This document shows positions 28,940 through 55,419 of a DNA stretch of 64,000 nt, in pieces; the first letter of the stretch is position 1, and every line of letters starts with the position of its first letter. Below the pieces are notes generated by a model. It worked only from the letters and a program-made list of their open reading frames with translations. It did no database searches and had not been told where the DNA came from. The stretch comes from Octopus vulgaris (taxonomy: Eukaryota): NCBI GenBank assembly GCA_951406725.2, contig OX597833.1, forward strand, positions 37,324,001-37,388,000, in the 5' to 3' direction. Both the position numbers and the translations under genes were made by a program.

Positions 28940-30992
28940 AAACAATAAAAATATAATGTTTATTCACTCAATGTTGCTATGAAGCAGTAGACTTAAAACT
29001 AAAAATTTGGTAAATTTACACTATGAAATACAACACTAAAATTTCAAAATGTGTAAGGGGTTCAGAGGAGTTGGCAGAATATATATTATCTTAGACATGT
29101 ATATTTCAGTTGAACTTCAAGTGAGTTTTGGACAGTAATTATCTAATTCAGGGATTCCCATCTTATAGGTCAGAGGTAAGATGTTGCTAAGAGTTTTTTT
29201 TATATAACCCTTTATATATGTATTTGTTCATGTGTGTGACTGAAAGAGTGAGTAACAGTAACATCGCAATAATAACATTGATGTCTATGTTGTTACTCAC
29301 ATTCCTATCATGTTGTCTGTGACACCAAAAATAGATAAGCACCCTGTATTAGTTAAGCTAAACTATACAAAACCTAAACTCAAGCAAGATTGTGGGAAAA
29401 TGCAGAGAACAGAAATTATAAGGTGATATTATTGAGTGTTTCAGCACAGAATGAAATGTATTATGTGCAAAAGTAATTCCTGTAAATATGCTCAAAGAAA
29501 AAGCTTGTCTTTCAAAGAGCTAATTTGAAGAGAGTTCTTGCAAGTAGCCAAATGCTATTGAATATTCAGACAAAAACACCAATACAGATCCGATGGTTCA
29601 AGAAAAATGATAATGATTATGATGATGGTAATGATAATGCTGCTAGTGATGATGATGATGTCATTTAGACTATTAATCTTGAAATTTTCAAGAATATTTA
29701 CTATTAAGAGAAAACCGTCATGGAATCACAAGACATAAAAAGCAGTTTCAACAACCATGGGAGTGTTGCAGCAGTTTGTGCATGTTACATGATGCAGGAA
29801 ATTCCCCCCCACCCACCCACTCCTCTAGGCTCACTTGGAGTCAGTCTGCGAGTAAACAGTAAACAAAGTTATGTAACTCAATTGACATACATTGAGTGAA
29901 GGGAGATAATTCAAGCAAGCGCCTTGCCCTGCCACCAAATTTCACAACTTATAAGAAAATTTTGTTTTAGTTAATTCCAAGGTTATTAATTATTCTCTGA
30001 TTATCTTTTACTGTAGCAGAAGTGGGGATCTGAGGAATTTACTGAAGCAGCAGTATGTAAAGAGTGAATTTTTCAATAGCAAGTTCAATATTTTGTGTTT
30101 ATAGAGGGATTTTCAAAACGTATCATACAAATACGGGGCAACTGGGGTGGTTATGATTTTAGAGAATCATATTTATGATTTTACAGGAATATAATGGTTA
30201 TCTAAATAGTTAAGCTTTTACAAAAATAAAAAATGAATCAAAAATATAAAATGCCTTTTTTTTTTTTTTCCATTTTCAAATGCAGAAATATATTCACAAA
30301 CAAAATGAGAAACAAAAAAATTAAAATTAAAATTAAAGGAAATTGAGAAATTAAAGAGGATAAATTTAACATCTTGATAAAATTTTAAAAGTAAGGAGTG
30401 TGCTTGTTTGTATGTATACGTGAAAGTTTGAGAGTTTAAAAAAAACAGGTGAAAGAAGTATTTTTAAATTCTCCACAACTACTTACAAACCAGCAATAAA
30501 AAAGAATTGCTAACAGGAAAGGAGAAAGGAATGAAATGCTGTTGACTGAGGAGAGAAAGAAGAGAAAGAACACAGCATTATTTTATTTTTTATGGTTGAA
30601 CTTATATTTGAGAGAGAGAGAGAGAGACAGAGAGTTTAGTGATATCCATAGATTAGCAGCTTTTTTATCTAGGGAAAAATAGTAGTGATTTTATAGAACA
30701 GCTGGAAGAGGGCAGCAAGGCAACAGAACAGCAAAAAGAAATGTAACCATGTTGACCACTCTGGCTGAAATGACCAGTGCGGCTTTAAGACACTTTGGTC
30801 AAATTGTTGATTGATGTTGAATAATGGAGAATGGAGAGAAGAGGTGGATTTTAGACATTTGCTCCACATGCTTTACACAATTTCATTAGTCTCAATTCAT
30901 CTGTTTCAGGTCAAATGGGTTGCTGCTGCTGTCCTTCCATGGGAGAAATTTAGGCTGATAACATTGGTAGAGGATTCAAGCTTTGGCAGCTC
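28940..30992 (-). other. Probable terminal exon / 3' UTR of the IgSF gene (begins GA, completing a T|GA stop)
   Basis: Very strong acceptor (about 35-nt pyrimidine tract, ttccacag|GA) at 30993; U-rich, TE-poor sequence follows; AATAAA on the - strand at 28964-28959. The 3' end position is uncertain. Confidence 0.55.
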
Positions 30993-31169
30993 CTGTGGAA
31001 ATTGAAAGAAAAACAAAAAAGAGAGAAAAAAACTTTAAATTTTATAAACACATATAAGAGTGGTGAATAGCCTTGGATTTGGAAAGTCCACATTTCCTAT
31101 AAATAAAACAAAAGCATGTCTCAAACACCTTCTGTTACTGTTATGACATGAGTTTGAATTAATTACTGA

Positions 31170-35546: not shown

Positions 35547-36859
35547 TGTGGGGATGAGCCAGAAGAAGAGGGTCATGACATCAATGGTCAAGGGGCTGAC
35601 CGGAAGAGGAAGCATGAGAAGGGAAGTGGAGGGAGAGAGGTAAGCGTTGTTCTCCTTTTTCCCGCTGGATGCATCACAAATAGATGTAAGGGAACTGGCT
35701 CCTGGGTTGGTCAGGTAGCAGCTGCTTATACTGGGTGACAGGGGTAGGGCAGGATCGTCAGAGAGATTACTACTAGACAGTGGTTGGGAACTGTGATAGG
35801 TGTCAATCCATCGACCTTGCTCCTGGAGATGACAGGCAGTGGATGTAACACACTACTGGCAGGGGATATATCTCTTGGTGGTTGACTGAGGACCAGGCCA
35901 TATCTCCATTTGGAGGGAACTGAGAGCATGCATTGCAGCAGAATGGCACGTATTCTAAACAAGGTATTCTTAGAGTGGGGCCCTGTGGATGATTTGTTGA
36001 TGGACAACAGCACAGTGTTTCGTTCAGAGGCACTGAAAGAGATGCTTGACAGGTGGTAAGTGCACCGCTTTTTCAGAGTGGCATACAGGCCAAGTGGAAA
36101 TGGGATCGTGGAAAGACATCATCAAACGATCAAGGCCATGGCAGAGAGGGGACACATCTCGCCGCTGGAAGCAGTATTCTGGTATAATATGTTGCCCCAA
36201 TCAGAACAGGCCGACGAGTCTGTGCCACATAGAGTGATATTCAAATATGAATGGTGGCATCCGAGTAAATCATTGGGATACCCTGAGGAAGTGAGAGGGC
36301 CCATATTCATGGAGGTAGGAGATAAATTCTGGGTCAAGTCACCAAAGGCATGCTGCACAACTCAGTGGAACAGATGAATAGTGACAGCTGTCAATTCCAA
36401 AAACAACATTTCTTAGTTGTTCATAGGATTGTTGCTTCATTGGATGATGACTGGAGGAGAGGAAGAGAATGAGGCTCCCAGCTTAAGAAGATCACAACTT
36501 ACAAAACACCCACCCGGGTGGGTGGTAGATTTCGACATGGAGTGAAGTGAGGAGGTGATCTTTGAGATCAGGGGGACGTGTAGGGATGAGCTGGAAGAAG
36601 AGGATCATGCCATTAATGGTCAAGGGGCTGACCGGAGGTGGAAGTGTGAGAAGTGGGGGAAGAGAGGCAAGTATTGTCCTCTTTTTGCCCACTGGAAGCA
36701 TCACAAATGGACATAAGGGAATTCACTCCCGGATTGGTTGGATAGCAGCTGCTTATACTGGTGACAGGGGTAGGGTAGGATCATTGGAGAGATTACTACT
36801 AGACAGGTGGTTGACAAGAGGAAGGTAGGTGAACTTCTTTTAATTTCCCATCCACGACA
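35547..36859 (+). mobile_element. Internally deleted Ty3/Gypsy LTR retrotransposon with integrase remnant
   Basis: Direct repeats 35547-~35790 and 36579-36859 (TG...CA), purine tract before the 3' LTR, TSD atctg/gtctg. Integrase core DNSTVF...AYRPSGNGIVERHHQTIK with a stop codon. Confidence 0.88.
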
Positions 36860-37705
36860 GTCTGGTAAAGTGTGCACTATACCAAGTTCAATAGTGTCAA
36901 ATATAATAGTAGAAGACAAGAGAAGTGGGAGGCAAGTGGATAACTTTACTGCACAAGTAAAACAGACCGATTTACTAAACTACATCTTTACAATACAACT
37001 TACTGACTATTAATTTTAGCCTGACTAAATACTAAAATTCAGAGAAGAATTGTTTTTCAGTAAAAGCAACAATCAAAGTCAATGAAACTAAAACACAGTC
37101 CATGATGGGAGAACATCAGAGAAAATCCAAGTTTAGGTTCTCAAAAATATACAATAACTTTAATTAATGACAGCAGGTTCAACTTTTATAGGATGGTGTT
37201 AAGTGTAGAAAACCTAAACAAAACAGAACATGCAGAGGCAATAAGGAAACATTCAAATACCAACATAAATAAATACAAGATATAAAACATCTAAAGGTTT
37301 TACAGAATATAAAACCATCATGAATAAGGAAATAAAAAAAGAAAAGCCCTTTTTTCTCACAAGTCACAGAATTGTTTTATAAAATGAAGCTACAGCAGAA
37401 GAAATAAATTCATAATCAAGATGCAAAATGAACTAAAAGAAGAATAAGAAAATCATATGCAAACACTGAATAAAAACAAACAGAATTCTTTAACTGAACG
37501 TGTAACCAAACAAATGTTAGATAATGCGTTTGATTTTAGGTTTTGAATGGGTTAATATAAAATGCCAACACCAGCACACAAGTTAGATGAAAGGTGGTAA
37601 ATTGAAGCAAATGGTGAATGGGAAAATATTGAAAGTAAACAAACCCACCCCCTTTGCATAAATAGGAAAATAAAAACTGTTCTGCATAATATAGTTGTAA
37701 CTTAC

Positions 37706-37729
37706 ATGCTTCAGGATCATCTTGGTAAG
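37706..37729 (-). CDS. 24-nt cytoplasmic micro-exon (AYQDDPEA + T of next codon)
   Basis: gtcttttctttgttttag|CT TAC CAA GAT GAT CCT GAA GCA T|gtaagt; both splice sites strong, phase 1-1. Confidence 0.75.
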
Positions 37730-37759
37730 CTAAAACAAAGAAAAGACAAAGTTACTGTC

Positions 37760-38145
37760 TGTCATGTGTCAGTCCTGTGAAAAACACCATCACTGAGTGG
37801 AGACCCTCCATTAAAAAGAGTCACTGCACAAGTCCTGTGTAAAGACACGGCCACTGTGAGACAGTTTTGTGTAAAGACAGTTGTTGTGTGACAGCCCTGT
37901 ATAAAGATGCATTCATTGTGTGATAGTTTTGAGTAAAGACAACACGGTTATTGTAAGACAGCCCTGTGTAAAGATACAGTTGTCGTGTGACAGTCCTGTA
38001 TAAAGGCAACATGGTCATTGTGTGAAAGTCCTGTGTAAAGAGACACAGTTGTTGTGTGATAGTCCTGTTTAAAGGCACAAGTCATTGTGTGATAGTCTCA
38101 AGTAAAATCTTTACACACAGTCATTGTGGTAGTTCTGTGTAAATA
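37760..38145. repeat. Minisatellite, about 31-33-bp unit, roughly 12 copies
   Basis: Unit approximately gtgtgacagtcctgtgtaaagacacagtcatt. Confidence 0.85.
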
Positions 38146-38595
38146 TTAGTGGATACATAAGTCTTTATATGGTGAGAGAGTGAATTAAGTAAACTTCACT
38201 ATGACATATGTACAAGTTTTGTCCATGAGGGATCAATAGCATTGATATAAAAATCAATGTGGATATGTGTCACTTTCATTCTTCTCAGTCTTGTCTCAAT
38301 CCATCAGAGTTGAGATATTTTGTATTAGATAACCATTGGTGCATATCCAGTGTTTGTTTGGAGTTATGATAGATGGGTACTGTCTATGTCAAAGCTGAAC
38401 AAACCTAAGTATTTAAGTGAAAGCTAACCAAACCAAACAACAGGTTGTAATCAATGTCCTTAACACATAGTCACCAGACAATGGATGTGTCCCATCTTCA
38501 TGATTGTTCTTTAGCAATATGACATAGGGGTCATACAACCAACAAAGACTGTCAGTTTCCTAAGGGATATCAGATTTTTCTATTAACATAGGTGC

Positions 38596-38666
38596 TTAAG
38601 ACTCCAAGTGTTCACTTCCATAAAGAGACGAACAACTTAATAGAAGTACAGTTGCAACATCTGATT
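38596..38666 (-). CDS. Candidate alternative terminal exon (ESDVATVLLLSCSSLYGSEHLES*)
   Basis: Acceptor ctattttttttcag|AA, in phase with the 101-nt exon, ends at TAA; no other support. Confidence 0.3.
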
Positions 38667-38866
38667 CTGAAAAAAATAGGTGTTTTTTTTTTATTGGTTA
38701 ATATGTGCTGTGCTTGTATCAAGACATATTTACAGGGATTGAGCTCATGATAATAGAGAAAAAATAATAGCCAGTCTTTGTTACTTCATCAACTGTTGAC
38801 ATGTGACATCTGTAGCTTGAATAATTATAGAATAAAGAAAAATATGAAAAAGAGCAATAATAATAC

Positions 38867-38967
38867 CTGTCATTGCCTGCTTTTCTTGATCGTTTTCATT
38901 ACGAGATTCTCTATTTCTTCGTCCCCCAACTGAAGATTTATTAATATTCTTCATTGGAATATTATTG
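38867..38967 (-). CDS. 101-nt cytoplasmic exon (SNNIPMKNINKSSVGGRRNRESRNENDQEKQAMT)
   Basis: tctttactttttcag|C AAT...ACA G|gtatta; phase 2 to 1, open and hydrophilic; 34+101 nt restores frame. Confidence 0.8.
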
Positions 38968-39827
38968 CTGAAAAAGTAAAGATGTAATAAGATGATGATG
39001 GTGATAGTGATAGTGGTGGTGATGATAGTAATGATAATGAAAGTGATAATAGCAATGATGATGGTAGTGGTGATGGTTTGAAATCAGATGAAAGTTTGGT
39101 TTGAACTATAGCAAAAGCTGAAAGTACATCTCTGACTATGTTAGAAAAATCAAATGATTGCAAATTTTAGAATGCAACTCTGAAGGTTCCTTGTTCTTTC
39201 TTTTCTTCTTCTTCATCAAGTTGTTCAAGTAAAGAAGGACAGTATCCATGATCTTTGCAGGCCTCATTCTTAATTTAGTAAGGCTAATGTCCAGTCTGAA
39301 CACCTGCAGAGGATGGAACCTAGGTCTTGGTCCTAATATTTGCAATGCAATGAATGCCAATGAAGATACCTAACAATGAATTGGTCTTAAACCATGTTAG
39401 GCATAGAGTCTCAAAGGCTAATGAGTAATTCTGTGTTAACATCCTTCCTTCTATAGAATTATTAAGGGTATGTAATGCAGAAAATATTCCAATAATTTTG
39501 GTAGGTGTCTCATGGAGCAACAAATATACAAACTATTTTTTAATCCTGGTGCAATATGGTTTACATATCACTAAATTTTGCTATTTATTGCATGATCCAA
39601 TGAACCATAAGTGCTCATTTTGAGGAAATATTTTTGATGGAACACAGCTGAATTTCTTTCAAGTGCCCATAGTATAATATAAATTTCCCATCACATGCAG
39701 CTTCAAGGTAAAAACAGTTAATTTGCAGCTGCAACATAAACCAGCAGAGGGAATTTTTGTTTCTTTATAGAAGCATTATATAAATGAAGTAAACAATATT
39801 CACAAACAAAAAATATAAAATTGATAC

Positions 39828-39861
39828 CTGTATTCATTGTCAGACAGTTCTTTCCTTTCAG
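39828..39861 (-). CDS. 34-nt cytoplasmic exon (AERKELSDNEY)
   Basis: ttttatattcttcag|CT GAA AGG...GAA TAC AG|gtatc; phase 1 to 2, complementary to the next exon. Confidence 0.75.
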
Positions 39862-40284
39862 CTGAAGAATATAAAATAATTGTCAATATTTTCAAATAAC
39901 ATTTTGATTATACAAAATTTAGTGAAAATTTTGATAGTAAAATAAACTAAATTATACTAAATTGGCAAAACAAAAATAATCCTACTATGCAAATGTGTGT
40001 GTAAGTGAGAGAGAGAAAGAGAGAGAGAGAGAGGAGTCAAAGAAAGAATTATGGAAAGAAGTTCGCTCTTTGCTTTACACAGTGAATCAAAAGCTGGTAT
40101 ATTTGTTCATGTCAACAGAATTGCTGTCACAACAGAGCAGTTGTTAGAATCAAATGAAAGCTGGAATAAATGAACAATTTAAATAAAATGAAGTATTGAT
40201 CACGATATTTTAAAAATATATTTTGTGTTTTTTGTTACTTATATAGAAAACATTATCTAATATTAATAATGATATTTAGCAGCA

Positions 40285-40580
40285 CCATAGTCAACTGCTA
40301 CAAAGGTAAAGGTGATGCATTAGATATAAATAATTACAGAGGCATCAAGTTATAGGATCAGGTAATGAAAGTCATAGAGAGGGTCACAGCCTAACAAATT
40401 AGGGAGAGAGTCAATCTAGACAAGATGCAGTTTGGGTTTCTGTCAGGGAAAAGTACCACTGATGCTATATTTCCGGTAAGACAGCTGCAGGAGAAATACC
40501 TAACCAAAGATAAACGTCTGTAACTGGCTTTCATTGACATAGAGAAAGCCTTTTACATGATCCCCCGATCCCTTATCTGG
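40285..40580 (+). mobile_element. RTE-clade reverse transcriptase fragment
   Basis: CYKGKGDALDINNYRGIKL...MQFGFLSGKSTTDAIF.VRQLQEKY...LAFIDIEKAF, with stops. Confidence 0.85.
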
Positions 40581-40584
40581 TAGT

Positions 40585-40980
40585 CAATGTAGAAACCAAG
40601 ATCGTAGATATTGCCATACCTGGAGATGTATGAGTGGATGATGAAGAATTGAAAAAGATTGAGAAGTACAAGCTACTAAAAGACAAAATTGCACGAATGT
40701 GAGTAATGAAGAAAGTAGCTGTCATCCCAGTAGTTGTAGGGGGATTAGGAGCATTAACAACCAGGTTTGAGAAATTTGTTGGAGGAAGTGGAATTGACAT
40801 GAGAAATGCTTTATTGAGAACAGTGAGGATTTTGAGACTGGTATTTGGGTGTTGAGTATCATGGAAGAAAACTTTGAGGTACTTGACAATAGGTTGTTGT
40901 TTGCTCTTACAAAATTAACCAGAACAAGTAAAATTGAGAGCTCTGAGAATAATAATGATAATAATAATAATAATAATAAT
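40585..40980 (+). mobile_element. R4/Dong-like 3' end with (TAA)n tail
   Basis: IVDIAIPGD...KKIEKYKLLKDKIAR...VIPVVVGGLGA restriction-like endonuclease, followed by (TAA)n. Confidence 0.75.
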
Positions 40981-40984
40981 AAAA

Positions 40985-41466
40985 TGCCCTGATGCAGTAC
41001 CAGGCAGTGGCTCTCATGGCTTCTGATCATAACTGATTGGAAGTGTTCTCATGTACATTGTTTTGTCTTGATATAAAAGATGGGCTACAGCAAATATTCT
41101 GCTCAATACCACAGATTTGCTTGTCAGTTGTTTGACCGTAACCAGTGGCTGACGATATGTGCATCTCTGATCATGAGCAGAAGTAGTTGAGGAGCATCAT
41201 AGCCGTGTGTTGAAAGGAATTCTTAGAGGTTTGGATAATTCACCTTTGGAAACATGATTCCATAAGCAATCAGGAAAATTCTAACTAGGCCCCACCTTCA
41301 AGGTCATGTGCTGTTTATCTTGATATGAGATCACCAGGTCACGCACATATGGTTGTGATGCATGTGCCTGCTATACCCTTATCAAATGGGTAGTCATGAT
41401 GGGTATACTGGGCTTTGTATATTTTACCCCAGTGTCACTTTGATGGCATGCACTGCTCTCTCACTC
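40985..41466 (+). repeat. Interspersed repeat E (probable LINE 3' end); second copy at 50140-50630
   Basis: Two highly similar ~480-bp copies ending gcatgcactgctctctcactc, next to (AAT)n-type tracts. Confidence 0.75.
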
Positions 41467-41477
41467 GACGACGACGG

Positions 41478-42300
41478 TCTCAAATTTTGACTCAAAGCCA
41501 GCAAGTTTGGGGGCAAGAGATAGTCAATTACATTGACCCCAATGCATAACTGGTACTTATTTCATCAACCCTGAAATGATGAAAGGCAAAGTCAAATTTG
41601 AACTTAGAGTGTAAGGACGGACAAAATGCTGCTAAGCATTTCACATGGCATACTAACGATTCTGCCAGCTTGCTGCCTTAATAATAATAATAATCATTTC
41701 TACTAAAGGCACAATGCCTGAAATTTGGAGGTGGGGACTAGTCAATTATATCAACCCCTGTACGTAACTGGTACTTATTTTATCAACCCCGAAAGGATGA
41801 AAGAAAGAGTGGACCTTGGTGGAATTTGAATTCAGACTAAAGACGGATGAAAAACCGTGAAGCATTTTGCCCAGTGTGCTAAATAAAGATTCCACCAGTC
41901 TGCTGCCTTAATAATAATCCTTTCTACTTTAGGCATAAAGCCTGAAATTTTGGGAGAGGGGGCCAGTCGATTACATTGATCCCAGTACTTGACAGGTATT
42001 TATTTTATTGACTCTGAAAGGATGAAAGGCAAGGTTGGCCTTGGCAGAATTTGAACTCAGATTGTAAAGACAGACAAAACACCACTATGCATTTATCTGG
42101 TATGCCAACGATTATGTCAGCTTGCTACCCTCAGCCCTTCTATAATAATGGTTTCTCAAATAGGCACAAGATTAAAAATTTTGGTAAAAAGGAGTAAATC
42201 AAACAAAGCCCTGGCCCAGTACTTGACTGGAGCTTATTATATTGATTCCAGAAGGATAAAAGGCAAAGTTGAGTTTGGCATGATTTGAAATCAGTGCATG
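41478..42300 (-). mobile_element. Head-to-tail array of four family B SINEs (tRNA head, Nin/Deu-like core, (ATT)n tail)
   Basis: About 220-bp unit; - strand reads aggcggcgagctggcagaatcgttag...gagttcaaattcc...gcctttcatcctttcggggtcgataaa...ggattattatt. Confidence 0.85.
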
Positions 42301-42778
42301 AAAATCAGTGCATGTAAATGACAATGGTTTTATATGTACATATAAATAAATAAATAAAAGGTTTCCTTCAGAATTTAAAGAGAAACATAACAGCACAATG
42401 ATTCTATGATGAGAGATAAAGGAGTCAATGCTATTGAAACATTGGAATTAGAAGATGGTAAGTACAGTGAAGATTGATCTGGGTTTATACATGCAATTTA
42501 GATTTACAAAATTTGGAGGCAAAATAAAAAAAAAAAAACAGTGAAAAATGCATTTACAACACTGACATGCAATATGAAGATTACTAAATGAGAAACAAAA
42601 TTACAACATTGATGATGATGAAAAGAAGTAGTTAGTTGAAAGTGCAGTCTCCAGATTTTAGAATTTTAATAAAAATGACTATTTCAAACTGATTGTGTAC
42701 ATGTGTATGATGTGGAATATAGTTGATTGTGTCAACCTCAGTATATGACTGGTACTTTATTTTATTGACAATCTAGAA

Positions 42779-43524
42779 CAGTGGTTCTCAACCATTTTTT
42801 AATCTATTTTTATTCTGGTGGACCTCCATAGCTATTTTATGTTTAAAAACTAGTTTCATAGATATTTCTTTCAAAAATTCCTATTTTGTTTTTCATACAT
42901 TAACATAGGCGCAGGAGTGGCTGTGTGGTAAGTAGCTTGCTAACCAACCACATGGTTCCGGGTTCAGTCCCACTGCGTGGCATCTTGGGCAAGTGTCTTC
43001 TGCTATAGCCCCGGGCCGACCAATGCCTTGTGAGTGGATTTGGTAGACGGAAACTGAAAGAATCCCGTCGTATATATGTCTGTATATATGTATGTGTGTG
43101 TATATGTTTGTGTGTCTGTGTTTGTCCCCCTAGCATTGCTTGCTTGACAACCGATGCTGGTGTGTTTACATCCCCGTCACTTAGCAGTTCGGCAAAAGAG
43201 ACCGATAGAATAAGTACTGGGCTTACAAAGAATAAGTCCCGGGGTCGATTTGCTTGACTAAAGGCGGTGCTCCCACATGGCCGCAGTCAAATGACTGAAA
43301 CAAGTAAAAGAGTATGTGTAGGTTGAACAACTTGTATGTAAAATGTTAGAAAGCAAAATGCAGCTGTTTCTTTCAATGAATACATCTGAATCAAAGTTTT
43401 TTCATGGACCCTTAAAATATTACTACAGATTCTCAATTTACCATTTTGCTAGCATGCCCGCCTCCTTCCAATCTCACATGGACCCCACCACTAGGGTCAT
43501 ATGGATCCTTGTTGAGAACCCATG
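42779..43524. mobile_element. hAT-type MITE inserted in a family B SINE and containing a family A SINE
   Basis: TIR cagtggttctcaac / gttgagaacccatg; 8-bp TSD atctagaa / atccagaa. Confidence 0.8.
42908..43312 (+). mobile_element. SINE family A, full length, inserted in a hAT MITE
   Basis: Near-identical to family A. Confidence 0.9.
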
Positions 43525-44390
43525 ATCCAGAAGGATAAAAAGTTGACAATGGTGAAATTTGAACTCAGAATGCAAACAAATGTAACTAGATATCGCAAGG
43601 CATTTTGTTCAAGACAAATGGGTATAGCAATCTAATAATAACAATAAATTTTTCTACTAAAGGTACAAGGCCTGGAGTTTTGGGGGAGAGGACTGGTCGA
43701 TTATGTCAACCCCACTGCTTCACTGGTATTTAATTTATCAGCCACAAAAGAATGAAAGGCAAAGCTGACCGTGGCGAAATTTGAACTCAGAACATAGCAA
43801 CAGACAAAATACCATTAAGTATTTCTTCCAACTTGCTAATGAACCTGTCAGCATACTGCCTTAATAATGATGATGATAATAATAATGATGATAAACACAA
43901 TTCTACAACATCCACTCCCCACCCAAGAAATACTGTACACTCCTAAGGAATGTGGTGGTGCAAATGGAAACTCATATATGTAAGGAGCTAAATGAAATAC
44001 TGCAGGCACTTTAACAGTGCTCAAATGGTTCTATCAGATCACTGTTTACAATTGTTTCTAATTAAGGTACAAGGTCAGCATTTTAAGGAGAAGGGGTGGG
44101 GGTTAGTTGATACTATCACCTTGAGTACTTGACTGGTACTTTACTGACCTCAGAAGAATGAAAAGCCAAAGTTCCCACCAGCTGGATTTGAACTCTCAAC
44201 ATTAGAAGCTAGAGCAAATATTAGAAGGCATTTTGTCCAACACTCTAGAAGAGGAATGATAATGGTGATGTGCTTGTTTATAGATACATCACCAACAGTT
44301 TAAGGAAAATAGTCAATTAAACTGACTGCAATATATGACTGATACTCATTTTAATGATCCTAGAAATAGATCAATAATGAGATTTAAACC
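43525..44390 (-). mobile_element. Family B SINE array, several diverged copies
   Basis: Repeated ggtacttaatttat...gaaaggcaaag...aatttgaactcag blocks separated by (TAA)n. Confidence 0.75.
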
Positions 44391-46125
44391 AAATGTATAA
44401 TGATAGTATAGTAATACCCTACTATCATTTTTGCTAAATTAGTATTTGCATGTGCTTACAAATTTCTCACTTTGTTTTAAGACATTTTGTAAAGAGAAGG
44501 CTATACCCTATGTAATAAAGTATACCACAGTATATTACTGGTACTTTATTTATTCATTTGAATGAACAGCAAAACTGACACTTGAATACAGTGAACCCAA
44601 AATGTTAAAAGATACAACTGTTTGATACACCTATATTTTTTTGTACTCTTCTACACTCATCTCAATAACAACATAATAGCAAAAACAATTCTCCAGTTAT
44701 TCATTTTTAAATATTTGTTTTCTTTTACTCAGTATAAAGAAAATTTGCTTGAATGTTTACAAGGTATTGACCTTTTTGTTTTTGTAGCATTTTATACTGT
44801 GGTCATCCTCAACTACTGAGGATTTTATTGAGTTTTAAAAATTTGTCAAAGACAGGACAGGCATTTGCACTTGTAATCCTTCTTAGATAGAAGTGTGGGT
44901 AAAGATGACTGGATAAGAAAATACAGTTAATGTTCATTGTAGAAAGGGAAGGAAATTTCAGATGGCTGGGAGAGGTTCTGGAGAAGATGGAATAAATAAT
45001 TTAGTGTATAACTGAGGAATGAGGATTAAGCTACTGTAAGATGTTTAAGAGTAGCATGGTACAGTCAGCAAATTCAAAAGAACAGAGACTGTTTCTAGTA
45101 GTGAAGTAAAAAGAAGAAGGAGAAAAGTAGAATGTAGTTGAGCACGCACAATGGTTGGTAAGTGTTGGCTTATTAATGACAAGGGCAATAACTTAGATTC
45201 CACCAAAATATGCAGAGTAAGAGGCTACTGATGTATGATTTGGAAAAAGGTTTCCAATTTTATAGAACTGTACAATCAATGAGGTTTGAAGACAAAATTC
45301 AGGGTAGAAGATGAATGGTTTTTATGATTTTCCATTACCTTAAACTTTTTTTTTATACCAATTGATCTAAGACCTCTGGTTCTAAGATACAAAATCTGCC
45401 TGTCTTAAAATTCATATTTAAATTAAAATCTTGCATCATTGTTTTATGCAAGATCCTTTTAAATTATGATCCAAAACCCAGCTAAATAATAAGAAAGTTA
45501 TTTTATTAAGTTCTTGATTATATTTAAAAAGTCATAGTTGAAGTTTGTTGGAAATATAGTCATAAAAAAGTTAAAGATATTCATAAATTGAGATGGATCA
45601 CAAAGTATTATTAATTTCTGGAAAGAAGAAATTATTATAGTCTTTAGAAAATTAATAATACAGAATACACAGAGAACCCATCCTACCTCCAAGAATGAAG
45701 AATAGGAATTCTTGAGAGAAAGGTAAAAACTGATAAAATTATGGCAGTATGTATCAAAGGGGAGTTCCTTGGAGAACTATATTAAAAAATAAAGACATTT
45801 TCAAGTGAAATGAAATAAATCACTGATATGATAATAATAATAATAATAAAACATTGTGTACAGTGCTCAGGTGCACTACAACTCATCTAAAGTGTATATA
45901 TAATCAGGTGTAGTTTTGGCGGATTTCGGAAAGCATGAGGGCCTTAAAGGATGCAGTGTCATGGCAGTCAACAACTGAGACTGCTGAAAGACAAGTGTTA
46001 CCTGAAGAATTAAGACTGAGACTCAATGAAGAGGAGATTAAGTAAGAAAAGGAATTAGCAAGATAATTTAAGCAAGAAGAAAAATTGACAACATCAATAA
46101 CCTAAATACTTGAGATATGTGTTAC

Positions 46126-46149
46126 CTGGTTTGTAACGTCCAATCATAG
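46126..46149 (-). CDS. 24-nt cytoplasmic micro-exon (AMIGRYKP)
   Basis: attttaccttttgaacacag|CT ATG ATT GGA CGT TAC AAA CCA G|gtaac; phase 1-1, open in frame. Confidence 0.65.
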
Positions 46150-46419
46150 CTGTGTTCAAAAGGTAAAATCACAACAATAAATGACAGACTTGTCTAATAA
46201 TGGAAAAGATAAATGAAGGCACAAAACACAATAAAAAAGTAGTTGTAACTCCTCTAATTTCTTTTTGTAATAAAGGGGAAAAAGTCAATTGCCTAGAATC
46301 CTTAAAATTACTTTCAAAATGCCTTTAAAAAATAAGGGAGCACAAACAAATCCAAAGTCTTTAGTGAAGTAACAGAAGAAATTATCACAAGTGTTTCTAA
46401 CATGATGATTACAGCAACA

Positions 46420-46985
46420 ATAATAATCCTTTCTACTAAAGGCATAAAGTCTGAAATTGTTTTTTTGTTGGGGTACTAGTCGATTACCTCGACCCCAGTG
46501 TTTTACTGGAACATAATTTATTGACCCTGAAAGGATGAAAGGCAAAGTTGACCTCAGCAGAATTTGAACTCAGTAAGTGAGGAGACCCCCCTTTGGTCAT
46601 GAATGACCATGGGATTGCACCTAGAATGTTACCCTCTGAGGCACAAGTCTGGGCAAGGTTGTTTGTGAAAGACCATCAGTTGCCCATGCATACTGGCCTC
46701 CCCTCTCCACACCATTGATGTTATCCAAGGGAAAGGCGAAGGCCGATACAGCTTGGCACCAGTGATGTCGTAACTCATTTCTACAGCTGAGTGAACTTGA
46801 GCAACATGAAATAAAGTGTCTTGCTCAAGAATACAACACACAGCCTGGTCCAGGAATCAAACTCACAACCTCACAACCGTAAGCTCGACGCTCTAACCAC
46901 TGAGCCATGCACCTTCACTCAGTAGGGCAAAATACCACTAAGCATTTCATCCAGAATGCTAACGATTCTGCCAGCTCGCCACCTT
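46420..46985 (-). mobile_element. Family B SINE interrupted by a family C SINE (46576-46916)
   Basis: Family C has a tRNA head (tggctcagtggttagagc...gagtttgattcc) and a CORE-like ttcttgagcaagacact; 8-bp TSD actcagta at 46568-46575 and 46917-46924. Confidence 0.85.
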
Positions 46986-47740
46986 TCTTAATAATAATAA
47001 TAATAATGATAATGTTGTTTTCTCTTATTGGTATAAGGCTATATATTTATAGTGGGGGATACAGTTGATGAACAGATACTTATATTATATTGACCCTGGA
47101 GAAATAAAATGCAATGTTGGCTGTAGTAGGATTTAAACCTAGAACAATTACTGTCAGGTATTAAGTCCAGCTATCCATAATGTCTAAAGTATATAATCAA
47201 TTGAATTGACTTCAATATATAGCAGGTATGTTTTGTATTGCTCCTGATAGTTAATGTGTTTATGAGCAAGAGTGTGTGTGCAAGCTTCTGCTGGTGCTAG
47301 AGAAAAATCGTGTGCACATGCACGTGTTAAACCACAAATATACAATTGCATTTAGATGATGGAATGTACATTTGTGTATGTGCTTATAAATATACACACA
47401 CACGTACATATAGAAAGAAAGACAGATACACGTGAACAAAAAAAAACTTACTTGGTAAAACAAAAAACAGCTTGCAGAGAGGATGATAGTTATGTGGAGG
47501 CAACAATAATGATGGTGTGATAATACGGTTTAACACCTTGCTTCAGTGTGAAGTAATAACAATAATAGCAAAGTGTATAAATAAAGTGTAATTTAGGGCA
47601 TAAAATAAAGCAGAAGCACATTGACCTCCATACTTCAGGAAGTAGAGAAGTCGACCCCAACACAACTCCTCACCACTATGGTGTGGTAGTTTTGTGTGAC
47701 AGAGAAACAACATGGACAAAATTGAAAAACTTCAACTCAC

Positions 47741-47878
47741 CTTCGGCTGCAGCAGCTTCCATTGCCCTCTTCTTAGCTCGCTTTCTGCGAATGTAGAGTA
47801 CGACGCCAAGGATTATAGCAATTATAATCTCAGGAATAATAACACAAAGCACCACAATGATAATCAACTTTGAAGAAT
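47741..47878 (-). CDS. Transmembrane exon of the IgSF gene (DSSKLIIIVVLCVIIPEIIIAIILGVVLYIRRKRAKKRAMEAAAAE)
   Basis: Strong acceptor (long U/C tract, gtttcag|AT), donor GAAG|gtgagt; 138 nt, phase 1-1. Hydrophobic helix followed by the basic stop-transfer RRKRAKKR. Confidence 0.92.
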
Positions 47879-48222
47879 CTGAAACAGCAAATAAGAAAAA
47901 AGAAAAGAAAAAGAAAATTTATATATTTTCCTCTGTCGAGAGTCAACCTCTAATTTCTGTTCTCTTTTCTTATCCTCCACCGACTGTCCAACCCTGGTAG
48001 CATTTGAGATCAGAACATAAAGAAAAATAACTGAATATGACAATGCATTAGAAGTCAAGCACATTTCAGACAGTACTGACCTGACAAACTAGAACAATGA
48101 CAACAACAACAACAACAGTCTTAATATATGAACAAGGTGTAAAATTTGGCAGAGGGGAACAGTCAATATATCAACCCAATACTTGACTAATACTGCAAAG
48201 AATGTAATACAATAACAAGTCT

Positions 48223-48682
48223 ACCAAACAAACCCTTGTCCTAATTGAGTTATAAGTGAACATTTCTCCTGGAAGTTTATTCAATAGCATCTTATTAATG
48301 CTATGTAGAGCAACATTTTTTTGGAACCAGGATAGCTCGCTCACAGATCCATTCTGTATTGTAATTATGAAGAAGATTAAGAAATATTTCAGCCACCAAA
48401 TCATCGATGGAATCAGTTGAATTACATATTGGATTGAGCGTTCTTCATCAATTGGAACTCTCCCTTCACTGAGTTTCAGAAGCTGCTCTGTAAAGAGTTC
48501 AATTGACTGATCTCTTGAAAGCCTCAATCTCATATTTGTCAAAAGTTGAAGTGCTTTCATATGATGCCATAATATAGAAGATTTTATTGAAGCACAATTA
48601 GTATTGCTGCCCTTGAACCATTTAGTTTCGTTTTATGGGACAAACACACAAACGGACAGAATCTCTCTTTTAGATACATAGA
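48223..48682 (-). mobile_element. Deleted Helitron with PIF1 helicase remnant (another 5' end at about 61329-61480, + strand)
   Basis: LTNMRL...LLKLSEG...KNV...IN.MLL.KLPG...Y.S; 5' end tctat...aaaag..attctgtc.gtttgt is shared with the 61329 copy. Confidence 0.7.
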
Positions 48683-48949
48683 CTAGTTATAGGACTCATT
48701 AGAATCTAGGCACGTAGGATGCCAGAAATGATTAGGTACAATAACATAGGGTTCACAGTGAGGATGCCTTCAGTATGAACTCTATATACATATATACACA
48801 CACACACCTAATAAAACAACACAACATATACTATATCAATAACATCAATCACAGTATATACATTCAGCTTCTCAACACAATAAATACAACATGGCACATA
48901 TTTTGTACAGCAAATTAAATACTACAATAGCACCAGAAACAACAAATAA

Positions 48950-50850
48950 TAATAATAATCCTTACTACTATAGGCACAAGGCCTAAAATTTGTGTGAAGC
49001 AGGTAAGCCGATTACATCGACTCCAGTGCGTAACTGGTACTCAATTTATTGACCCTCAAAGGGATGAAAGGCAAAGTCGACCTCAGCAGAATTTGAACTC
49101 AGAATGTAAAGATGGACTAACTGCTGCTAAGCATTTTCCCCAGTGTGCTAACAATTCTGCCAGCTTGCTGCCTTGATGATAATAATAATCCTGTAGTGAC
49201 GTCATTTTCCAGTGTGCGCACACGCAACGTCATTCTTCAGTGTGCGTGTGCGGAACGTCATTCTTCAGTGTGCGTGTGCGGAACGTCATTCTTCAGTGTG
49301 CGTGTGCGGAATGTCATTCTTCAGTGTGCGTGTGCGGGGCTGGAACCTTCTAGAAAGGCCTTAGGAAGTTCCCTCATGCACATGCGCAAGAGACTGGGGA
49401 AGAAAATTCTATCGCGTTCCTTGTTAGCGTCGTTGACTTGAGACACGGCTATTGAAGAGAAAGGACATGTTGTGTTAAACGTGTGATCAGCCTATTCTCC
49501 TGTCCCAGACGCTTAAGATTTGACCTGCTCTGTTGTTGCTGAATTTGTTGTAAGAATCTTACAAATGTTAAAGTTCAGCCTTGCTATATCGAACCAAGTG
49601 GATACCAATATACCAACGTACTTCTTTTGTAAATAAGAAAATAAAGAGTTATATATATATTTATGGTTGCGTTCTTGTTCCTGACTGGTATTTTCTGGAA
49701 ATTAAAGAAAGGAAATTGGTTGCACCCAAACAGTGTAAAGAATTAACCAGTTCCATTACAAATCCTTTCTACTATAGGCACAAGGTCTGAAATTTGTGTG
49801 GAGTGGGTAAGTTGATTACATCAATCCCAGTGCGTAACTAGCACTTAATTTATTGACCCCAAAAGGATGAAAGGCAAAGTTGAACTTGGTGGAATTTGAA
49901 CTCTAAATGTAGCAACAGATGTAATGCTACTAAATAGTTTGCCTGGCATGCTAATGATTCAGCCAGCTTACTGCCTTAATAATAATTCTTTCTGCTATAG
50001 GCACAAGCCTTGGAATTTGTGGGGAGGGTGATAGTTGATTACACCGACCTCAGTACTTGACTGGTACTTAATTTATCAACCTTGAAAAGATGAAAGGCAA
50101 AGGCTGACCTCGGCAGAAACTACAATAATAATAATAATGATACACTATTTTGTCTTGGTATAAAAGATGGGCTACAACAAATATTCTGCTCAATACCACA
50201 GATTTGCTTGTCAGTTGTTTGACCGTAACCAGTTGAGCATGTCCCTTAGTGGCTGACGATATGTGCATCTCTAACCACAAGCAGAAGTAGTTGGGGAGCA
50301 TCAGAGCTGTGTGTTGAAAGGATTTTCTTGGAGGTTTGAATAATTCAACTTTGGATACACGAGTGGTTTGTTCAACATCCTTAAACAATCTTTACTCAGG
50401 GACCTTTTGAGCGGGGTGGGCTACTCGACCAGAAAAAAATTCTAACTGGGCCCCACCTGCAAGGTCATGTGCTGTTTATCTTGATATGAGATCACCATGT
50501 CACACACATTTGGTTGTGATGCATGTGCCTGGTGTACCCTTATCAGACGGGTAGTCATGATGGGTATACTGGGCTTCGTATATTTTACCCAAGTGTCACA
50601 TTGATGGCATGCACTGCTCTCTCACTCAATAATAATAATATTAATGCTTCTAATTTATGCACACTCATCTACAGTTGGAAGAGAGAGGTTAGTTGATCAA
50701 ATCAACCTCAGTACTCAGCTGGTACTTTATTGACCCTAGAAGGATGAAAGGCAAATACAATGTTGGTGGGATTTGAAATCAGAGTGTAAAGGGTTATATA
50801 ACTGCAAAACAGACATTTTTTCTAATACTCCAGCCACTCCACCAACCTGC
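48950..50850 (-). mobile_element. Family B SINE array hosting a solo LTR and a repeat E copy (further B copies at 53560-53830)
   Basis: B units at about 48950-49172, 49761-49976, 49980-50120 and 50640-50850. Confidence 0.8.
49192..49760. mobile_element. Solo LTR (569 bp) with five 28-bp tandem repeats
   Basis: Ends TGTAGTG...CATTACA, perfect 5-bp TSD aatcc (49187-49191, 49761-49765), AATAAA near 49640, CpG-rich. Confidence 0.85.
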
Positions 50851-51585
50851 TAACAATAATAACAAAAATAGTTAAGAGTGATTAAAATGGCAACCCCATT
50901 TGCATTGTGAAAAGCAATTAGAACCACACCCCTCAAGTAATGATGATGATTGGAAGACTAACTCTACAGATATCTGTCCATTTAGCCTCTCCACTAACAA
51001 TTTGGATGAGGGACAAGCTGGAGTTTCACAGTAGCATTGACATTTTCTACTTGGCCAACAAATGTCATGTTATGATTTCTTTTAACCAATGACAAAACAA
51101 TCACTTGGAAGACAGGGATCAGTAGTAAATGGAAAAGGTTACTGGTGATGATGATAGTGATGGGATAGTGGAGATAGTAATGGTAATGGTGGGGACAGTG
51201 AAGGCGATGGTAAAGAAAGCAAATCTCCCAGTGAATTCCCTTCTCTTTTTGAAATGTCTGATCACAATATTATTCTAAGAGTATTTGTTTAATCTAGCAA
51301 GAAAAAAGCAGATAACCACCTCACCATCAAATTTGCTACTATTCTGAAACCAAAAGGTGAAATTTCAAAAACATTACATGAATTGAAAAATAAAGAAACT
51401 GAAATCATTCTCTTCGTTTTACTTAAATACTGATTATTGAACACTGATAGCTGTACACTGAGATTTTGAATTCTTCCACAGGCTCATCTGCAGGTTTGAC
51501 AATCAAACCTTAGTAGTTACATAAATGCATACATTACACACACACACACTCACATTTGAAGGAATGACTGAGTTGTTAAACTTAC

Positions 51586-51603
51586 CTTTCTCTTCATTTT
51601 TAA
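51586..51603 (-). CDS. 18-nt stalk micro-exon of the IgSF gene (VKNEEK)
   Basis: Pyrimidine tract tctttgttctttcag|TT AAA AAT GAA GAG AAA G|gtaagt; phase 1-1, joins the Ig and TM exons in frame. Confidence 0.75.
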
Positions 51604-51779
51604 CTGAAAGAACAAAGATAGAAACATAAAGAATATTAAATTTCAAATATATCATCTAATACATTCAGTATTTAAATTATTTATGCATCTGTTAAAACAA
51701 CAATAACAATCCTCATTGCAAATATGACTCACTGGAAGACAAAACTGATGATGAACATGACATCACTAGGGAGTGTAGC

Positions 51780-53470
51780 CATTGAAAAAAAATTCACGGT
51801 GACACTTTCTCTTTTGTGATTTGTTATTGCACTAATATTCATTTGAATGACATTTAGAACAGTAAAAATTGGCTACAAACTAGGAAGAAATACACCTCTA
51901 AATCACTTATCCTTCATGGATGATTTGAAAATATTAGCAAAGTCTGAAAAAGAAACTCCACTTAATGCTGTAAAGATGCGTAGTGATATTGGAATGGAGT
52001 TTGGTATATCAAAATGTAAGTTTAATAATGGAAAGAGGGAGGAGAGCCCATTGTAATGGAATAAACTTACTGGAAGAACAGACTTTAGATCCTGATGACA
52101 ATAGGTACAAGTAACTTGGCATACTGGAACTCAATTTTATGCATAAAGGAGTGAAGGAAAAAGTGAAAACAATATATCTGAAGGAGTTAAAGTTTGTACT
52201 GAAGTCCAAACAGTAGCGATTGCTACCGTGTTAGTGTTGGAATAGAGAATTGGATGAAGAATGAAATGGAGGCATTAGATAGAATAACCCTAGCTATGCA
52301 TGGAGCACTTAATCTAAAGGTAAATGTTAGTTGCTAATACAAGAAACAGAAGATAGGGGGGGGGGAGAACTTATTAGCATTTTTGAAGAATAAAGGTCAC
52401 TAAAGATTAGTAAATCAAAGAGTAATGAATTACTACTTTCTGCAAGAGAATTAAGAGTTCCTTGTGTTAAAGAAAGAGAAGAAAACATACCAAAGTAGAA
52501 ATGTAGTTACTTGAACAATTTCAGAGACATTCTTCAATGTTAAAAAAAGGAAAAATCATGACTCATGATGGGAGTTTGTTCTGGAGAGAAACTGAGTTCA
52601 TTGCTGGTTGTTCATGATGAAACTCAAAACACTAGAGTAGTAAGCTACACTTTTTAAACAAGTGCTATGTAATCAGTGAGAGGAAAATATTGAGCATATT
52701 GTAGTAGAGAGCTCAGAAGGAATACAAGTGACGTCATAAATTTTGTCTAAATTAACACTGATCACCTTATAGATAATATGGATGCAACACTTTAGGCAAG
52801 TGGTATAATCACATAGCAGTAATGCTCAAAATCAAGTGTTCTCAACTGGGATCTATACAAGATTTTGTTAAAAGTTATCTACAATAAATTCTTTATACTT
52901 CTACAATACATAAAATATTATTTTTTTATACACTTCCTAATAATATTTAATTATAAAAATACAGTAGAATGTATTTTATGCATATCAAATGGCTATGGAA
53001 GTCCAGTAGAGTAAAATAGGAATCAAAGGTGTCCTTAAGAAAAAAAATGGTTGAGAAATATTGCTCTAAATGAACTTGGTAAACCAAAAATTGTGTGGTA
53101 TTTTGACATCCAGAACAAATGAAGATCATAGACAGATATCATTTTATGACATGAAAAAAAAAAAAAAAAGAATGCCTTGTAATACTTTCAAACCAAGATA
53201 CCACAGACAAAGAAGAAATAGAGATCTCACTATATTTGCCAATTTAAAAGTAGAGATATCAAGAATGTGGAAACATCAAGCAGCAAAATGAAGTTGTACC
53301 AGTTATCTTCAGAATATTAGGATCAGCCCCCACCCCAGGATAAAAAAAAACAAAACAAAACTGTTATATACCCTTGGAACACCTGGACTTCAACATATAT
53401 GTGAAAACTCAAAAAATCTACCTCCTTTGAAACACTTTACACTCTTTAAAGAGGCCCACTCCGTCTAGGA
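51780..53470 (+). mobile_element. R4/Dong-like (RLE) non-LTR retrotransposon relic
   Basis: RT motif NHLSFMDDLKILAK...DIGMEFGISKC; C-terminal endonuclease-like remnants (LW-F-I-T...DI; LKVEISRMW; VVPVI..LG). Confidence 0.75.
52833..53063. mobile_element. hAT-type MITE inside a LINE relic
   Basis: TIR caagtgttctcaac / gttgagaaatattg; TSD ctcaaaat / ctctaaat. Confidence 0.7.
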
Positions 53471-55077
53471 CCCTTTGTTAAGGCTTGACAATTAACAAAG
53501 AAAAAAACAACAAAATATCTAGTAATTTATATCCACACTGTGCAATGCAATAAAATAATAATGGCTTCAAATGTTAGCACAAGGCTGACAATTGTGGGGG
53601 GAGGTGGTTAATCAGCTCACCACTTTCAGCAACATCAACACAACAACAACAATAATAATGATTTAAAATTTCTGACACAAGGTCAGAAATTTCAGGGGAG
53701 GGGATAAGTTGATTACATTGACCCTGGTGTTCAATGGTACTTATTTTATCAACCTTGAAAGGATGAAAGGCAAAGATGGCCTCGGCAGAATTTGAACTCA
53801 GAATATAAAGATGGACAAAATGCCACCTTGATGATGATGATGATAAGAAGAAGAACAATAACAATCTACAAAGTGGCTCTTATGACTTTTCTTAGAAACT
53901 CAAGATAGGGTTAACATAGGAGGATGTCACAAGCTGGTGTGATTTTTAACCTTGGCTACAATTGATATGAAACTGCAAGATGATAATATTTCTGTATATT
54001 CGAAGTGTTTTAGGTTGTGTGGTAGATCTATTAGGTGTAAATGCAAGTAATGTTGATATCAAATTACAGCAAAATCTCACTGAATTACAAGAGTGATGAA
54101 AAATTTCAACCTAGATACAAGCACAGCAAACAGAGAAAAGTAATGAAATTTATAAAAACTATAATTCATAGAAAAGTTATGGAATTGCTAGAGAGCTTCC
54201 ACTTTTATGGAGAAAGCAGAATTATTTGGATTTTTTTTTTACTTATTGAATTTGGCTTTAGTAAAGGAACTTACAATCAAAGGCAAAAGGCAAGCAACTA
54301 TTTGGAAATAGGGATCAACATCGTGACCAGATTTTGAAAAAAACTTGCAATTTTGCATCAACCACAAACATCACACTGAATCAAGTACCAATTATAATAG
54401 TTTTTTGTTACTATATATTTTATGTTTTTAAGAATTATTATTCTTGGTACACATTTTTAAAGATAATTCATGGTGACGTTCATAATTTTATGTTGCTAAT
54501 GAACTTCATTTGCTAATACAGTTTTATCTGGATAAAAATGGTCATTTCTATGACAAAGCTGCAGTTAATATACACTGCAAATGCTATGTTTTCCACTAAC
54601 AACATCTATAGGATGGGTTACATGGATGCAAGTAGGAGCTGTAAGCAAAACAAAAAAAAAATGGTTAGGAACCATTGACAGTTAAGCATTTTGAAAGGTC
54701 AAAAAAATAAAAGCTGTTGTAAACTAGTTCTTTGAATGGAATCGGATCCCATTTAGGTTGTGTGTAAGATGGTGGATTATCAGGTAGGTCTCATAAGACT
54801 AAGAATATTGGTGTAGATCATATCAACAGGCATTAAAATGTTCATGATAATAATGACACTGATACAATGACATTAGTGGGCTTGCAAGGCATTGCAATGC
54901 CATTGGTATGTATGTGTGACATTGTAATGTCATTAACAGGCTTGCATTAACATTACAATATCAGTAGCAGGCTCTGATATTATATGCATACTCATCAAAT
55001 AAATAAGTATGGCTCAGCAATTAATAATAAAGCAACATAACAGACAAAAGAAACTGTATCAATAAATCAGTACTTAC

Positions 55078-55419
55078 CAATATTGAAGATCCTCATGAAT
55101 GATTCTTCTCCAACAGTATTATTAACACTACACTTTATGGCTATCTTCATCTCTCTGTTTGGGTAATACTTCAAGCTAATTTTCTGCCTGGTCTGGCATG
55201 AAGTTGCAATAGGTTCTAGACCTAATCTAGAAACATTTTCTGTAATGTGGTTGAAGCTTTTGAGACTGAGGTCATCAGTAATGAACCAATCTACATTGCC
55301 AGGAGGGTTGCCAACTTCGGAATCACATATTAAATGAATCTGTTTACCTACGTTAAACTCATATTCTTTATCAGCCAGAATAATAAAGTTGGATCGTATT
55401 TCAACTTTCTCAGGTGGAG
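55078..55419 (-). CDS. Ig-like (C2/CD80-type) domain exon of a type I membrane IgSF protein; upstream exons not found in window
   Basis: Acceptor tttcag|CT and donor TTG|gtaagta; 342 nt, phase 1-1. Translates xPPEKVEIRSNFIILADKEYEFNVGKQIHLICDSEVGNPPGNVDWFIT...KIAIKCSVNNTVGEESFMRIFNI, with Ig hallmarks LxC-x4-GNPP-x3-W and xxC-x-V-x-N. Confidence 0.9.

What the first reader, a model, noticed from the sequence alone, without database searches (positions are those of the whole stretch)
37706..55419. Uncharacterised IgSF receptor assembled from micro-exons, three of which each carry one tyrosine
Seen: hand-spliced product ...Ig-VKNEEK-DSSK-TM-RRKRAKKRAMEAAAAE-AMIGRYKP-AERKELSDNEY-SNNIPM...QAMT-AYQDDPEA*. 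The 18-, 24- and 24-nt exons and the 34+101 pair are phase-1 symmetric and so independently skippable; the TM exon (138 nt) is skippable too, which would give a secreted form. Tyr motifs GRYKP, DNEYSN and AYQDD lie on separate modules. Known: micro-exons are neurally regulated in bilaterians and tune interaction surfaces. Inference: a combinatorial signalling tail on an adhesion or immune receptor, invisible to the ORF track.
Basis: partly seen in the sequence, partly recalled or inferred. Interest (0 to 1): 0.7.

Follow-up and report, generated by a model that had tools for sequence, protein, structure and literature searches.

The report
Cephalopod Ig protein with micro-exon switches
An unstudied octopus membrane protein of the immunoglobulin type has two tiny optional exons, kept in distant relatives (likely squids and cuttlefish), that swap its tail end and add a likely cytoskeleton-adaptor site, and an invariant acidic residue in its membrane helix that likely grips a partner protein.

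Summary
The gene is real. All seven exons sit at the stated places (minus strand). The full gene is signal peptide–IgV–IgC2–TM–tail (339–350 aa), annotated only as 'uncharacterized' in Octopus.

Two 24-nt exons are true cassettes. The last one (37706–37729) is included in 3 of 4 and skipped in 2 of 4 spliced contig sets, and it swaps the C-terminus. The first (46126–46149) is skipped in 4 of 4, but present in two octopus models. Both switches recur in orthologues only 40–45% identical.

No in-frame skip of the 18-nt exon, the TM exon or the 34+101 pair was seen. The middle tyrosine is Gln in 15 of 15 distant orthologues.

The membrane helix, with a central Pro-Glu, is the most conserved part (80–84% against 29–42% for the Ig domains). 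The first cassette keeps only A-x-x-G-x-Y-K, and G-x-Y is a known FERM-binding motif.

It is not basigin: octopus has its own, and this gene is closer to an unnamed molluscan V-C2 family lacking the Glu. Best reading: a cis-partnering Ig protein whose tail motifs are toggled by splicing. Partner, tissue and binding are untested.

The parts
55078..55419 (-). Exon for the membrane-proximal C2-type Ig domain (342 nt, phase 1-1). A donor 4 nt further (55074) is used in one annotated frameshifted model.
51586..51603 (-). 18-nt stalk micro-exon (B); strong splice sites; present in every octopus model that keeps the TM
47741..47878 (-). Transmembrane exon (138 nt) with the invariant core around Pro259-Glu260 and a basic juxtamembrane helix. 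An alternative donor at 47712 is used in one annotated model with a short tail.
46126..46149 (-). 24-nt cassette micro-exon (D); weak splice sites; minor form; adds a G-x-Y motif; 27-nt-equivalent insert in a distant orthologue
39828..39861 (-). 34-nt tail exon (E); no skip seen; its tyrosine is not conserved
38867..38967 (-). 101-nt tail exon (F); no skip seen
37706..37729 (-). 24-nt cassette micro-exon (G); inclusion gives the acidic Tyr-bearing end and makes a TGA with the first two bases of the last exon; skipping gives a 5-residue Ala-rich end
29500..30992 (-). Terminal exon and 3' UTR (covered by contigs at least to 29500, the end of the stretch laid)

Best explanation
This is a single-pass V-C2 immunoglobulin protein, found at high identity only in octopods and unnamed relatives (likely squids and cuttlefish), whose invariant mid-membrane Pro-Glu likely holds it in cis to another membrane protein, while two conserved cassette micro-exons likely set what its tail binds: one adds a G-x-Y motif predicted to dock a FERM (4.1/FARP-type) adaptor, the other swaps the C-terminus. 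SHOWN: exon structure; spliced contigs; both states of the last cassette in RNA contigs; both cassettes in/out in orthologues 40-45% identical; TM as the most conserved part; not basigin. INFERRED: a membrane partner for the Glu (by analogy with basigin Glu218); FERM binding by the first cassette; a trafficking or adaptor role for the Tyr/acidic end. Because the stop made by the last cassette falls inside the last exon, both ends should escape nonsense-mediated decay (established rule, recalled).
For: TM 20-21 of 25 identical to six distant orthologues against IgV 29-37 of 101 and IgC2 40-48 of 114; a 13-residue TM core is unchanged in 22 of 22 models that have a TM. Octopus-versus-cuttlefish basigin shows the same pattern (ectodomain 46%, TM 100%). 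The Glu lies 14 residues before the first basic residue, against 13 in 93 of 98 basigins. The only PDB sequence hit of the C2-TM-tail protein at E<=10 is neuroplastin, Glu on Glu, at a non-significant E 1.1. Basigin's TM Glu contacts MCT1 Asn187 (PMC7996999, passages). Three molluscan V-C2 relatives lack the Glu, so it is a lineage-specific gain under constraint. Cassette D keeps A, G, Y, K between octopus and P0077; G-x-Y is described as the common FERM F3-binding motif (PMC6041286, passages); G-x-Y-x-x-x-E occurs at 0 of 251 tail tyrosines in 113 other TM proteins held (mostly basigins, so a weak control). Cassette G: both forms in RNA and 7 in, 8 out among 15 distant sequences. The genome encodes FERM C-lobes (11 matches).
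Against: No partner is identified. TM segments rich in I/V/L look alike by composition, and the 22 TM sequences amount to two clades. The D homology rests on one distant sequence (1 of 15). The published 4.1 consensus puts an R-x-K/E directly before G-x-Y (PMC2139837, passages); here 11-12 residues intervene, and a three-letter motif is easily met by chance. The Ig domains best resemble adhesion modules (Rst, Neph1, SYG-1 D1-D2), which fits a plain adhesion role as well. Tissue of the RNA runs is not on record.
Confidence: 0.42

Rival explanations
1. A homo- or heterophilic adhesion/recognition molecule (JAM, nectin or Neph-like use of the V domain); the Glu drives self-association in the membrane, and the cassettes tune anchoring.
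For: V+C2 tandem matches Rst, SYG, Neph1 and nectin D1-D2 at Z 14-16, tied with butyrophilin/B7; Atlas neighbours are fasciclin-3, IGSF5, nectins and JAM-A at 0.94-0.96; distant orthologues have an optional 6-residue stalk insert (5 of 15) that would change reach.
Against: The V domain is the least conserved domain (29-37%); no conserved PDZ-type end by inspection (consensus recalled); fold matches are generic at 14-19% identity.
Confidence: 0.28
2. One reading: a combinatorial phosphotyrosine signalling tail of three modules, plus a secreted form.
For: Two tyrosines sit on true cassettes and are conserved; four in/out combinations among octopus models; one O. vulgaris model ends before the TM by a frameshift (P0005).
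Against: Middle Tyr is Gln in 15 of 15 distant orthologues; exons E+F never skipped in frame; no TM-skip protein in 24; none of the Tyr contexts fits ITAM, ITIM or YxxPhi by inspection (consensus recalled); the truncated model has a premature stop upstream of several junctions and is a decay candidate.
Confidence: 0.15
3. A fast-evolving immune or self/non-self receptor that pairs through the charged TM residue with a signalling chain.
For: Fast ectodomain change, long octopod branch (1.16 changes per column); B7/butyrophilin-like fold.
Against: Single copy in the genome; in the known systems the receptor carries the basic residue and the adaptor the acid (recalled).
Confidence: 0.1
4. The micro-exons are splicing noise or annotation artefacts.
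For: Cassette D has weak sites and was skipped in 4 of 4 contig sets.
Against: Both cassettes have sequence-similar, equally optional counterparts at the same positions in orthologues 40-45% identical.
Confidence: 0.05

Closest known systems
Basigin / neuroplastin / embigin (CD147 family)
   Same: Small Ig ectodomain, one TM helix with a mid-membrane Glu at nearly the same depth, TM far more conserved than the ectodomain.
   Different: Lacks the family's invariant TM motif; V+C2 ectodomain closer to another family (hhalign E 5e-17 against 2.5e-8); octopus has a separate true basigin on another contig; Pro directly before the Glu.
Unnamed molluscan V-C2-TM proteins (Lottia LOTGIDRAFT_228571, Patella LOC126829368, octopus paralogue at L002 and unnamed P0037)
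   Same: Same domain order and cysteine pattern, with an extra Cys in each Ig domain; best profile match; grouped together in the tree at 88/89 with a long-branch warning.
   Different: No TM Glu; tails unrelated; about 19-28% identity.
SynCAM/CADM, glycophorin C, neurexin IV (4.1/FERM-binding tails)
   Same: G-x-Y after a basic juxtamembrane stretch, but only in the D-included isoform.
   Different: Motif is on an optional micro-exon, 11-12 residues further from the basic cluster; two Ig domains; no PDZ-type end.
Kirre/Rst/Neph1/SYG-1, JAM/CTX, B7/butyrophilin ectodomains
   Same: V plus C2 tandem fold (Z 14-16, rmsd 3-5 A over about 190-200 residues).
   Different: 14-19% identity, matches tied, no shared TM or tail.
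eMIC/SRRM4-dependent neural micro-exons
   Same: Frame-keeping cassettes of 24-27 nt in a surface protein, conserved over long distances.
   Different: No UGC close to either 3' splice site; tissue unknown.

Membership tests
Basigin/neuroplastin family | Invariant TM motif (13 invariant columns from L296 to L312 in 22 basigins) | tested here: not met
   only the Glu and general hydrophobicity align
Basigin/neuroplastin family | Mid-membrane Glu about 13 residues before the cytoplasmic basic cluster | tested here: met
   14 here, 13 in 93 of 98 basigins
Basigin/neuroplastin family | Best reciprocal profile match / orthology | tested here: not met
   separate octopus basigin; the basigin profile scores this protein 21 bits, the same as unrelated V-C2 proteins
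Basigin/neuroplastin family | Obligate partner of MCT or PMCA | not testable with these tools
   no binding data
Unnamed molluscan V-C2-TM group | V domain with C-x-D-x-x-x-Y-x-C, C2 with G-N-P and an extra Cys, one TM | tested here: met
   (probability 98.8%, 254 columns)
4.1/FERM-binding tail (SynCAM, glycophorin C, neurexin) | G-x-Y core | tested here: met
   in D-included isoforms only
4.1/FERM-binding tail (SynCAM, glycophorin C, neurexin) | R-x-K/E immediately before G-x-Y, as in the printed consensus | tested here: not met
   11-12 residues intervene
4.1/FERM-binding tail (SynCAM, glycophorin C, neurexin) | Binds a FERM F3 lobe | not testable with these tools
   the candidate FERM C-lobes examined are split over exons
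Kirre/Neph and nectin/CADM families | Five (Neph) or three (nectin/CADM) Ig domains (numbers recalled) | tested here: not met
   two Ig domains in all full-length models
JAM/CTX family | V+C2 ectodomain | tested here: met
JAM/CTX family | Extra cysteine pair inside the C2 domain and PDZ-binding end (recalled) | tested here: not met
   extra Cys are one per domain (C96, C198); C-termini differ between clades and isoforms
eMIC/SRRM4 neural micro-exons | 3-27 nt, frame-keeping cassette | tested here: met
eMIC/SRRM4 neural micro-exons | UGC close to the 3' splice site, CUAAY branch point (PMC8797185, passage) | tested here: not met
   nearest TGC at -72 (D) and -99 (G); no CTAAY within 120 nt
eMIC/SRRM4 neural micro-exons | Neuron-specific inclusion | not testable with these tools
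   tissues of the runs not on record; contigs give no inclusion level
ITAM/ITIM immune receptors | Y-x-x-L/I/V motifs (recalled) | tested here: not met
   residue +3 is Ala (D), Asn (E) or Asp (G)

The most novel reading that the evidence does not exclude
Coleoid cephalopods built a second, independent basigin-like auxiliary subunit from an ordinary molluscan V-C2 adhesion gene: it gained an intramembrane Pro-Glu that clamps onto a pump, transporter or channel, and conserved micro-exons switch its FERM anchoring, its C-terminal sorting signal and (in one clade) its stalk length, so that splicing sets where the partner sits in a given cell type.
Probability: 0.17. Interest if true: 0.78.

Novelty: new member of a known kind. 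Interest (0 to 1): 0.48.

Why it matters
Few cephalopod micro-exon switches are documented (2 papers held both 'microexon' and 'cephalopod', neither about one, by their listings). This gene offers two cassettes kept across a deep split while the Ig domains drifted to about 35% identity, plus a testable one-residue handle (Glu260). If it is a convergent basigin-like subunit, it would be a coleoid innovation in how membrane proteins are placed. If it is a plain adhesion molecule, it is a tidy but ordinary case of tail splicing in an orphan IgSF gene.

Tried and rejected
No run was on record as RNA; the four laid are 'RNA?' guesses, accepted here because they carry GT-AG joints. An octopus counterpart of the distant 6-residue stalk insert was sought among 72 open 18-nt AG..GT/GC pairs in six intron intervals and not found. 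YCAY (Nova-type) clusters near the cassettes: not enriched (26% of 400-nt windows as high). Pfam gives no tail family for D-included proteins. PDB sequence searches give only generic Ig hits; the TM exon alone hit a designed repeat. Atlas search of TM+tail: best 0.83, a lead only. A search of the genome with the Lottia protein returned low-complexity noise. An intronless FERM frame (L050) looked like another subfamily (recalled) and was not used. The clade test was badly posed (three V-C2 rows plus one basigin) and is not used. Literature: gene ids in 0 papers (main texts only, supplementary tables not searched and could list them); (listings only) showed nothing on this gene. Earlier scan notes: none.
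Full report
1. Observation. The seven exons have AG/GT ends and the stated sizes and phases: 342 (Ig), 18 (B), 138 (TM), 24 (D), 34 (E), 101 (F), 24 (G). The terminal exon begins at 30992; after G its first two bases complete a TGA, and without G they start a five-residue Ala-rich end. On a rough splice-site score B (17.2) and G (12.2) top the gene's short AG..GT pairs, with none at 10 or more on the other strand; D (5.5) does not stand out.

2. The gene. The Ig exon is 100% identical to a protein named 'uncharacterized LOC106882630' in Octopus vulgaris, on a contig of the same length as the window's, so that annotation is not independent of this DNA. Mapping it adds an IgV exon and a signal-peptide exon beyond the window. 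The product is signal peptide, IgV, IgC2, TM, and a 67-78 residue tail. AlphaFold gives two Ig domains, one helix from 244 to 295 and a disordered end (pLDDT 77.7). Fold matches are generic V+C2 tandems, tied at Z 14-16: Rst, SYG, Neph1, butyrophilins, B7. The gene is single copy, with one distant paralogue (L002).

3. Splicing evidence. Contigs from four runs of four studies were laid on 29500-40300. E-F is joined in 4 of 4. G is included in 3 of 4 and skipped in 2 of 4; X12 holds both. In 4 of 4 the sequence beyond E's acceptor is the end of the TM exon, so D is skipped there; contigs drop rare forms. Among 8 octopus models from three species, the 6 with a full tail show all four D/G states; D is in one O. 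sinensis and one O. bimaculoides model. The other two models use shifted donors (55074 with B skipped; 47712 joined to F) and stop early; they are decay candidates by the usual rule (recalled).

4. Conservation. A scan of 1.84 billion representatives found only three proteins under E 1e-30, then generic Ig. A profile search added more, giving 15 full-length, unnamed transcript-derived orthologues, 40-45% identical for the 12 measured. Their organism is not on record; divergence like that between octopus and cuttlefish basigin suggests squids and cuttlefish (inference). In them G is in 7 and out 8, with the same Tyr-x-Asp-Asp-Pro end and an Ala-rich alternative. A D-like 9-residue insert occurs in 1 of 15 at the same place; octopus D is its best match among 585 pseudo-exons, and G is best of 58. 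A third optional insert of 6 residues sits in the stalk in 5 of 15; no octopus counterpart was found. One cluster of near-identical sequences shows five of eight possible combinations. E+F and TM are present in 15 of 15, and E's tyrosine is Gln in 15 of 15.

5. The TM is the most conserved region: 20-21 of 25 against 29-37 of 101 (IgV) and 40-48 of 114 (IgC2), with a 13-residue core around Pro259-Glu260 unchanged in 22 of 22 TM-bearing models. The Glu aligns with neuroplastin's at E 1.1 (not significant) and lies at nearly the same depth as in 93 of 98 basigins. In basigin that Glu contacts MCT1 (PMC7996999, passages). But octopus has a true basigin elsewhere, and this family is closer to molluscan V-C2-TM proteins without the Glu (E 5e-17 against 2.5e-8; tree 88/89 with a long-branch warning). 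The Glu is therefore most likely convergent. Cassette D conserves G-x-Y, described as the common FERM-binding motif (PMC6041286, passages). The longer 4.1 consensus (PMC2139837, passages) is only partly met. In a low-confidence model of the D-included form the helix ends just before the Gly, leaving the motif in coil.

6. Mechanism. Shown: structure, expression as spliced RNA, two conserved cassettes, a C-terminal swap, TM constraint. Inferred: the Glu binds a membrane partner in cis; D toggles FERM coupling; G toggles an acidic Tyr end used for sorting or adaptor binding. I put this at 0.42, plain adhesion with TM self-association at 0.28, the three-tyrosine signalling model at 0.15, an immune receptor at 0.10 and noise at 0.05. 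Against my reading: no partner, a short motif, one distant D sequence, and two clades behind the TM invariance.

7. Regulation. eMIC targets have UGC near the 3' splice site (PMC8797185, passage). D and G do not, and YCAY is not enriched. Neural control is neither shown nor excluded.

8. Novelty. The gene ids occur in 0 main texts; supplements were not searched. The gene and both cassettes are already in automatic annotation, unstudied. Tail micro-exons in Ig proteins are a known kind (recalled); the deep conservation of the switches and the basigin-like Glu are new observations here. Verdict: new member of a known kind, interest 0.48.

Noticed in passing
window 37831-38097: About 8 copies of a degenerate 32-nt unit in the intron before cassette G, ending 100 nt from its acceptor; no YCAY enrichment.
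   Followed up: partly
window 48174-48632 (-) and 49199-49337: PIF1-like helicase fragment (Pfam; probably a Helitron remnant) and five copies of a 28-nt unit in the intron before the TM exon.
   Followed up: no
window 22766-23191 (+), 21030-21311 (-): Mariner-type transposase and reverse-transcriptase fragments downstream of the gene.
   Followed up: no
window 30967-34203 and 34927-36857: Low-depth contigs cover parts of the last intron in runs X12 and X7: pre-mRNA, intron retention or a transcribed repeat.
   Followed up: no
P0069, P0071, P0072, P0077, P0078: Distant orthologues carry a third optional 6-residue insert in the stalk; not found in octopus.
   Followed up: partly
P0003 (Argonauta model): Ends six residues after the C2 domain with Gly-Lys-Cys, as a read-through of a donor would give; probably an incomplete model of an 18-nt stalk exon (inference).
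   Followed up: no
L002:1411-1809: Paralogous C2 exon on contig C19, close to unnamed P0037, a V-C2-TM protein without the TM Glu.
   Followed up: partly
L040:1420-1542 (-): TM exon of the true octopus basigin/neuroplastin.
   Followed up: yes
L050:790-3249 (+): Intronless frame of at least 820 aa with a whole FERM domain and PPxY-like stretches; resembles PTPN14/21 (recalled, untested).
   Followed up: no
tree: The octopod branch of this family is long (1.16 changes per column) against 0.2-0.3 for the distant orthologues; octopod basigin shows 0.22.
   Followed up: no
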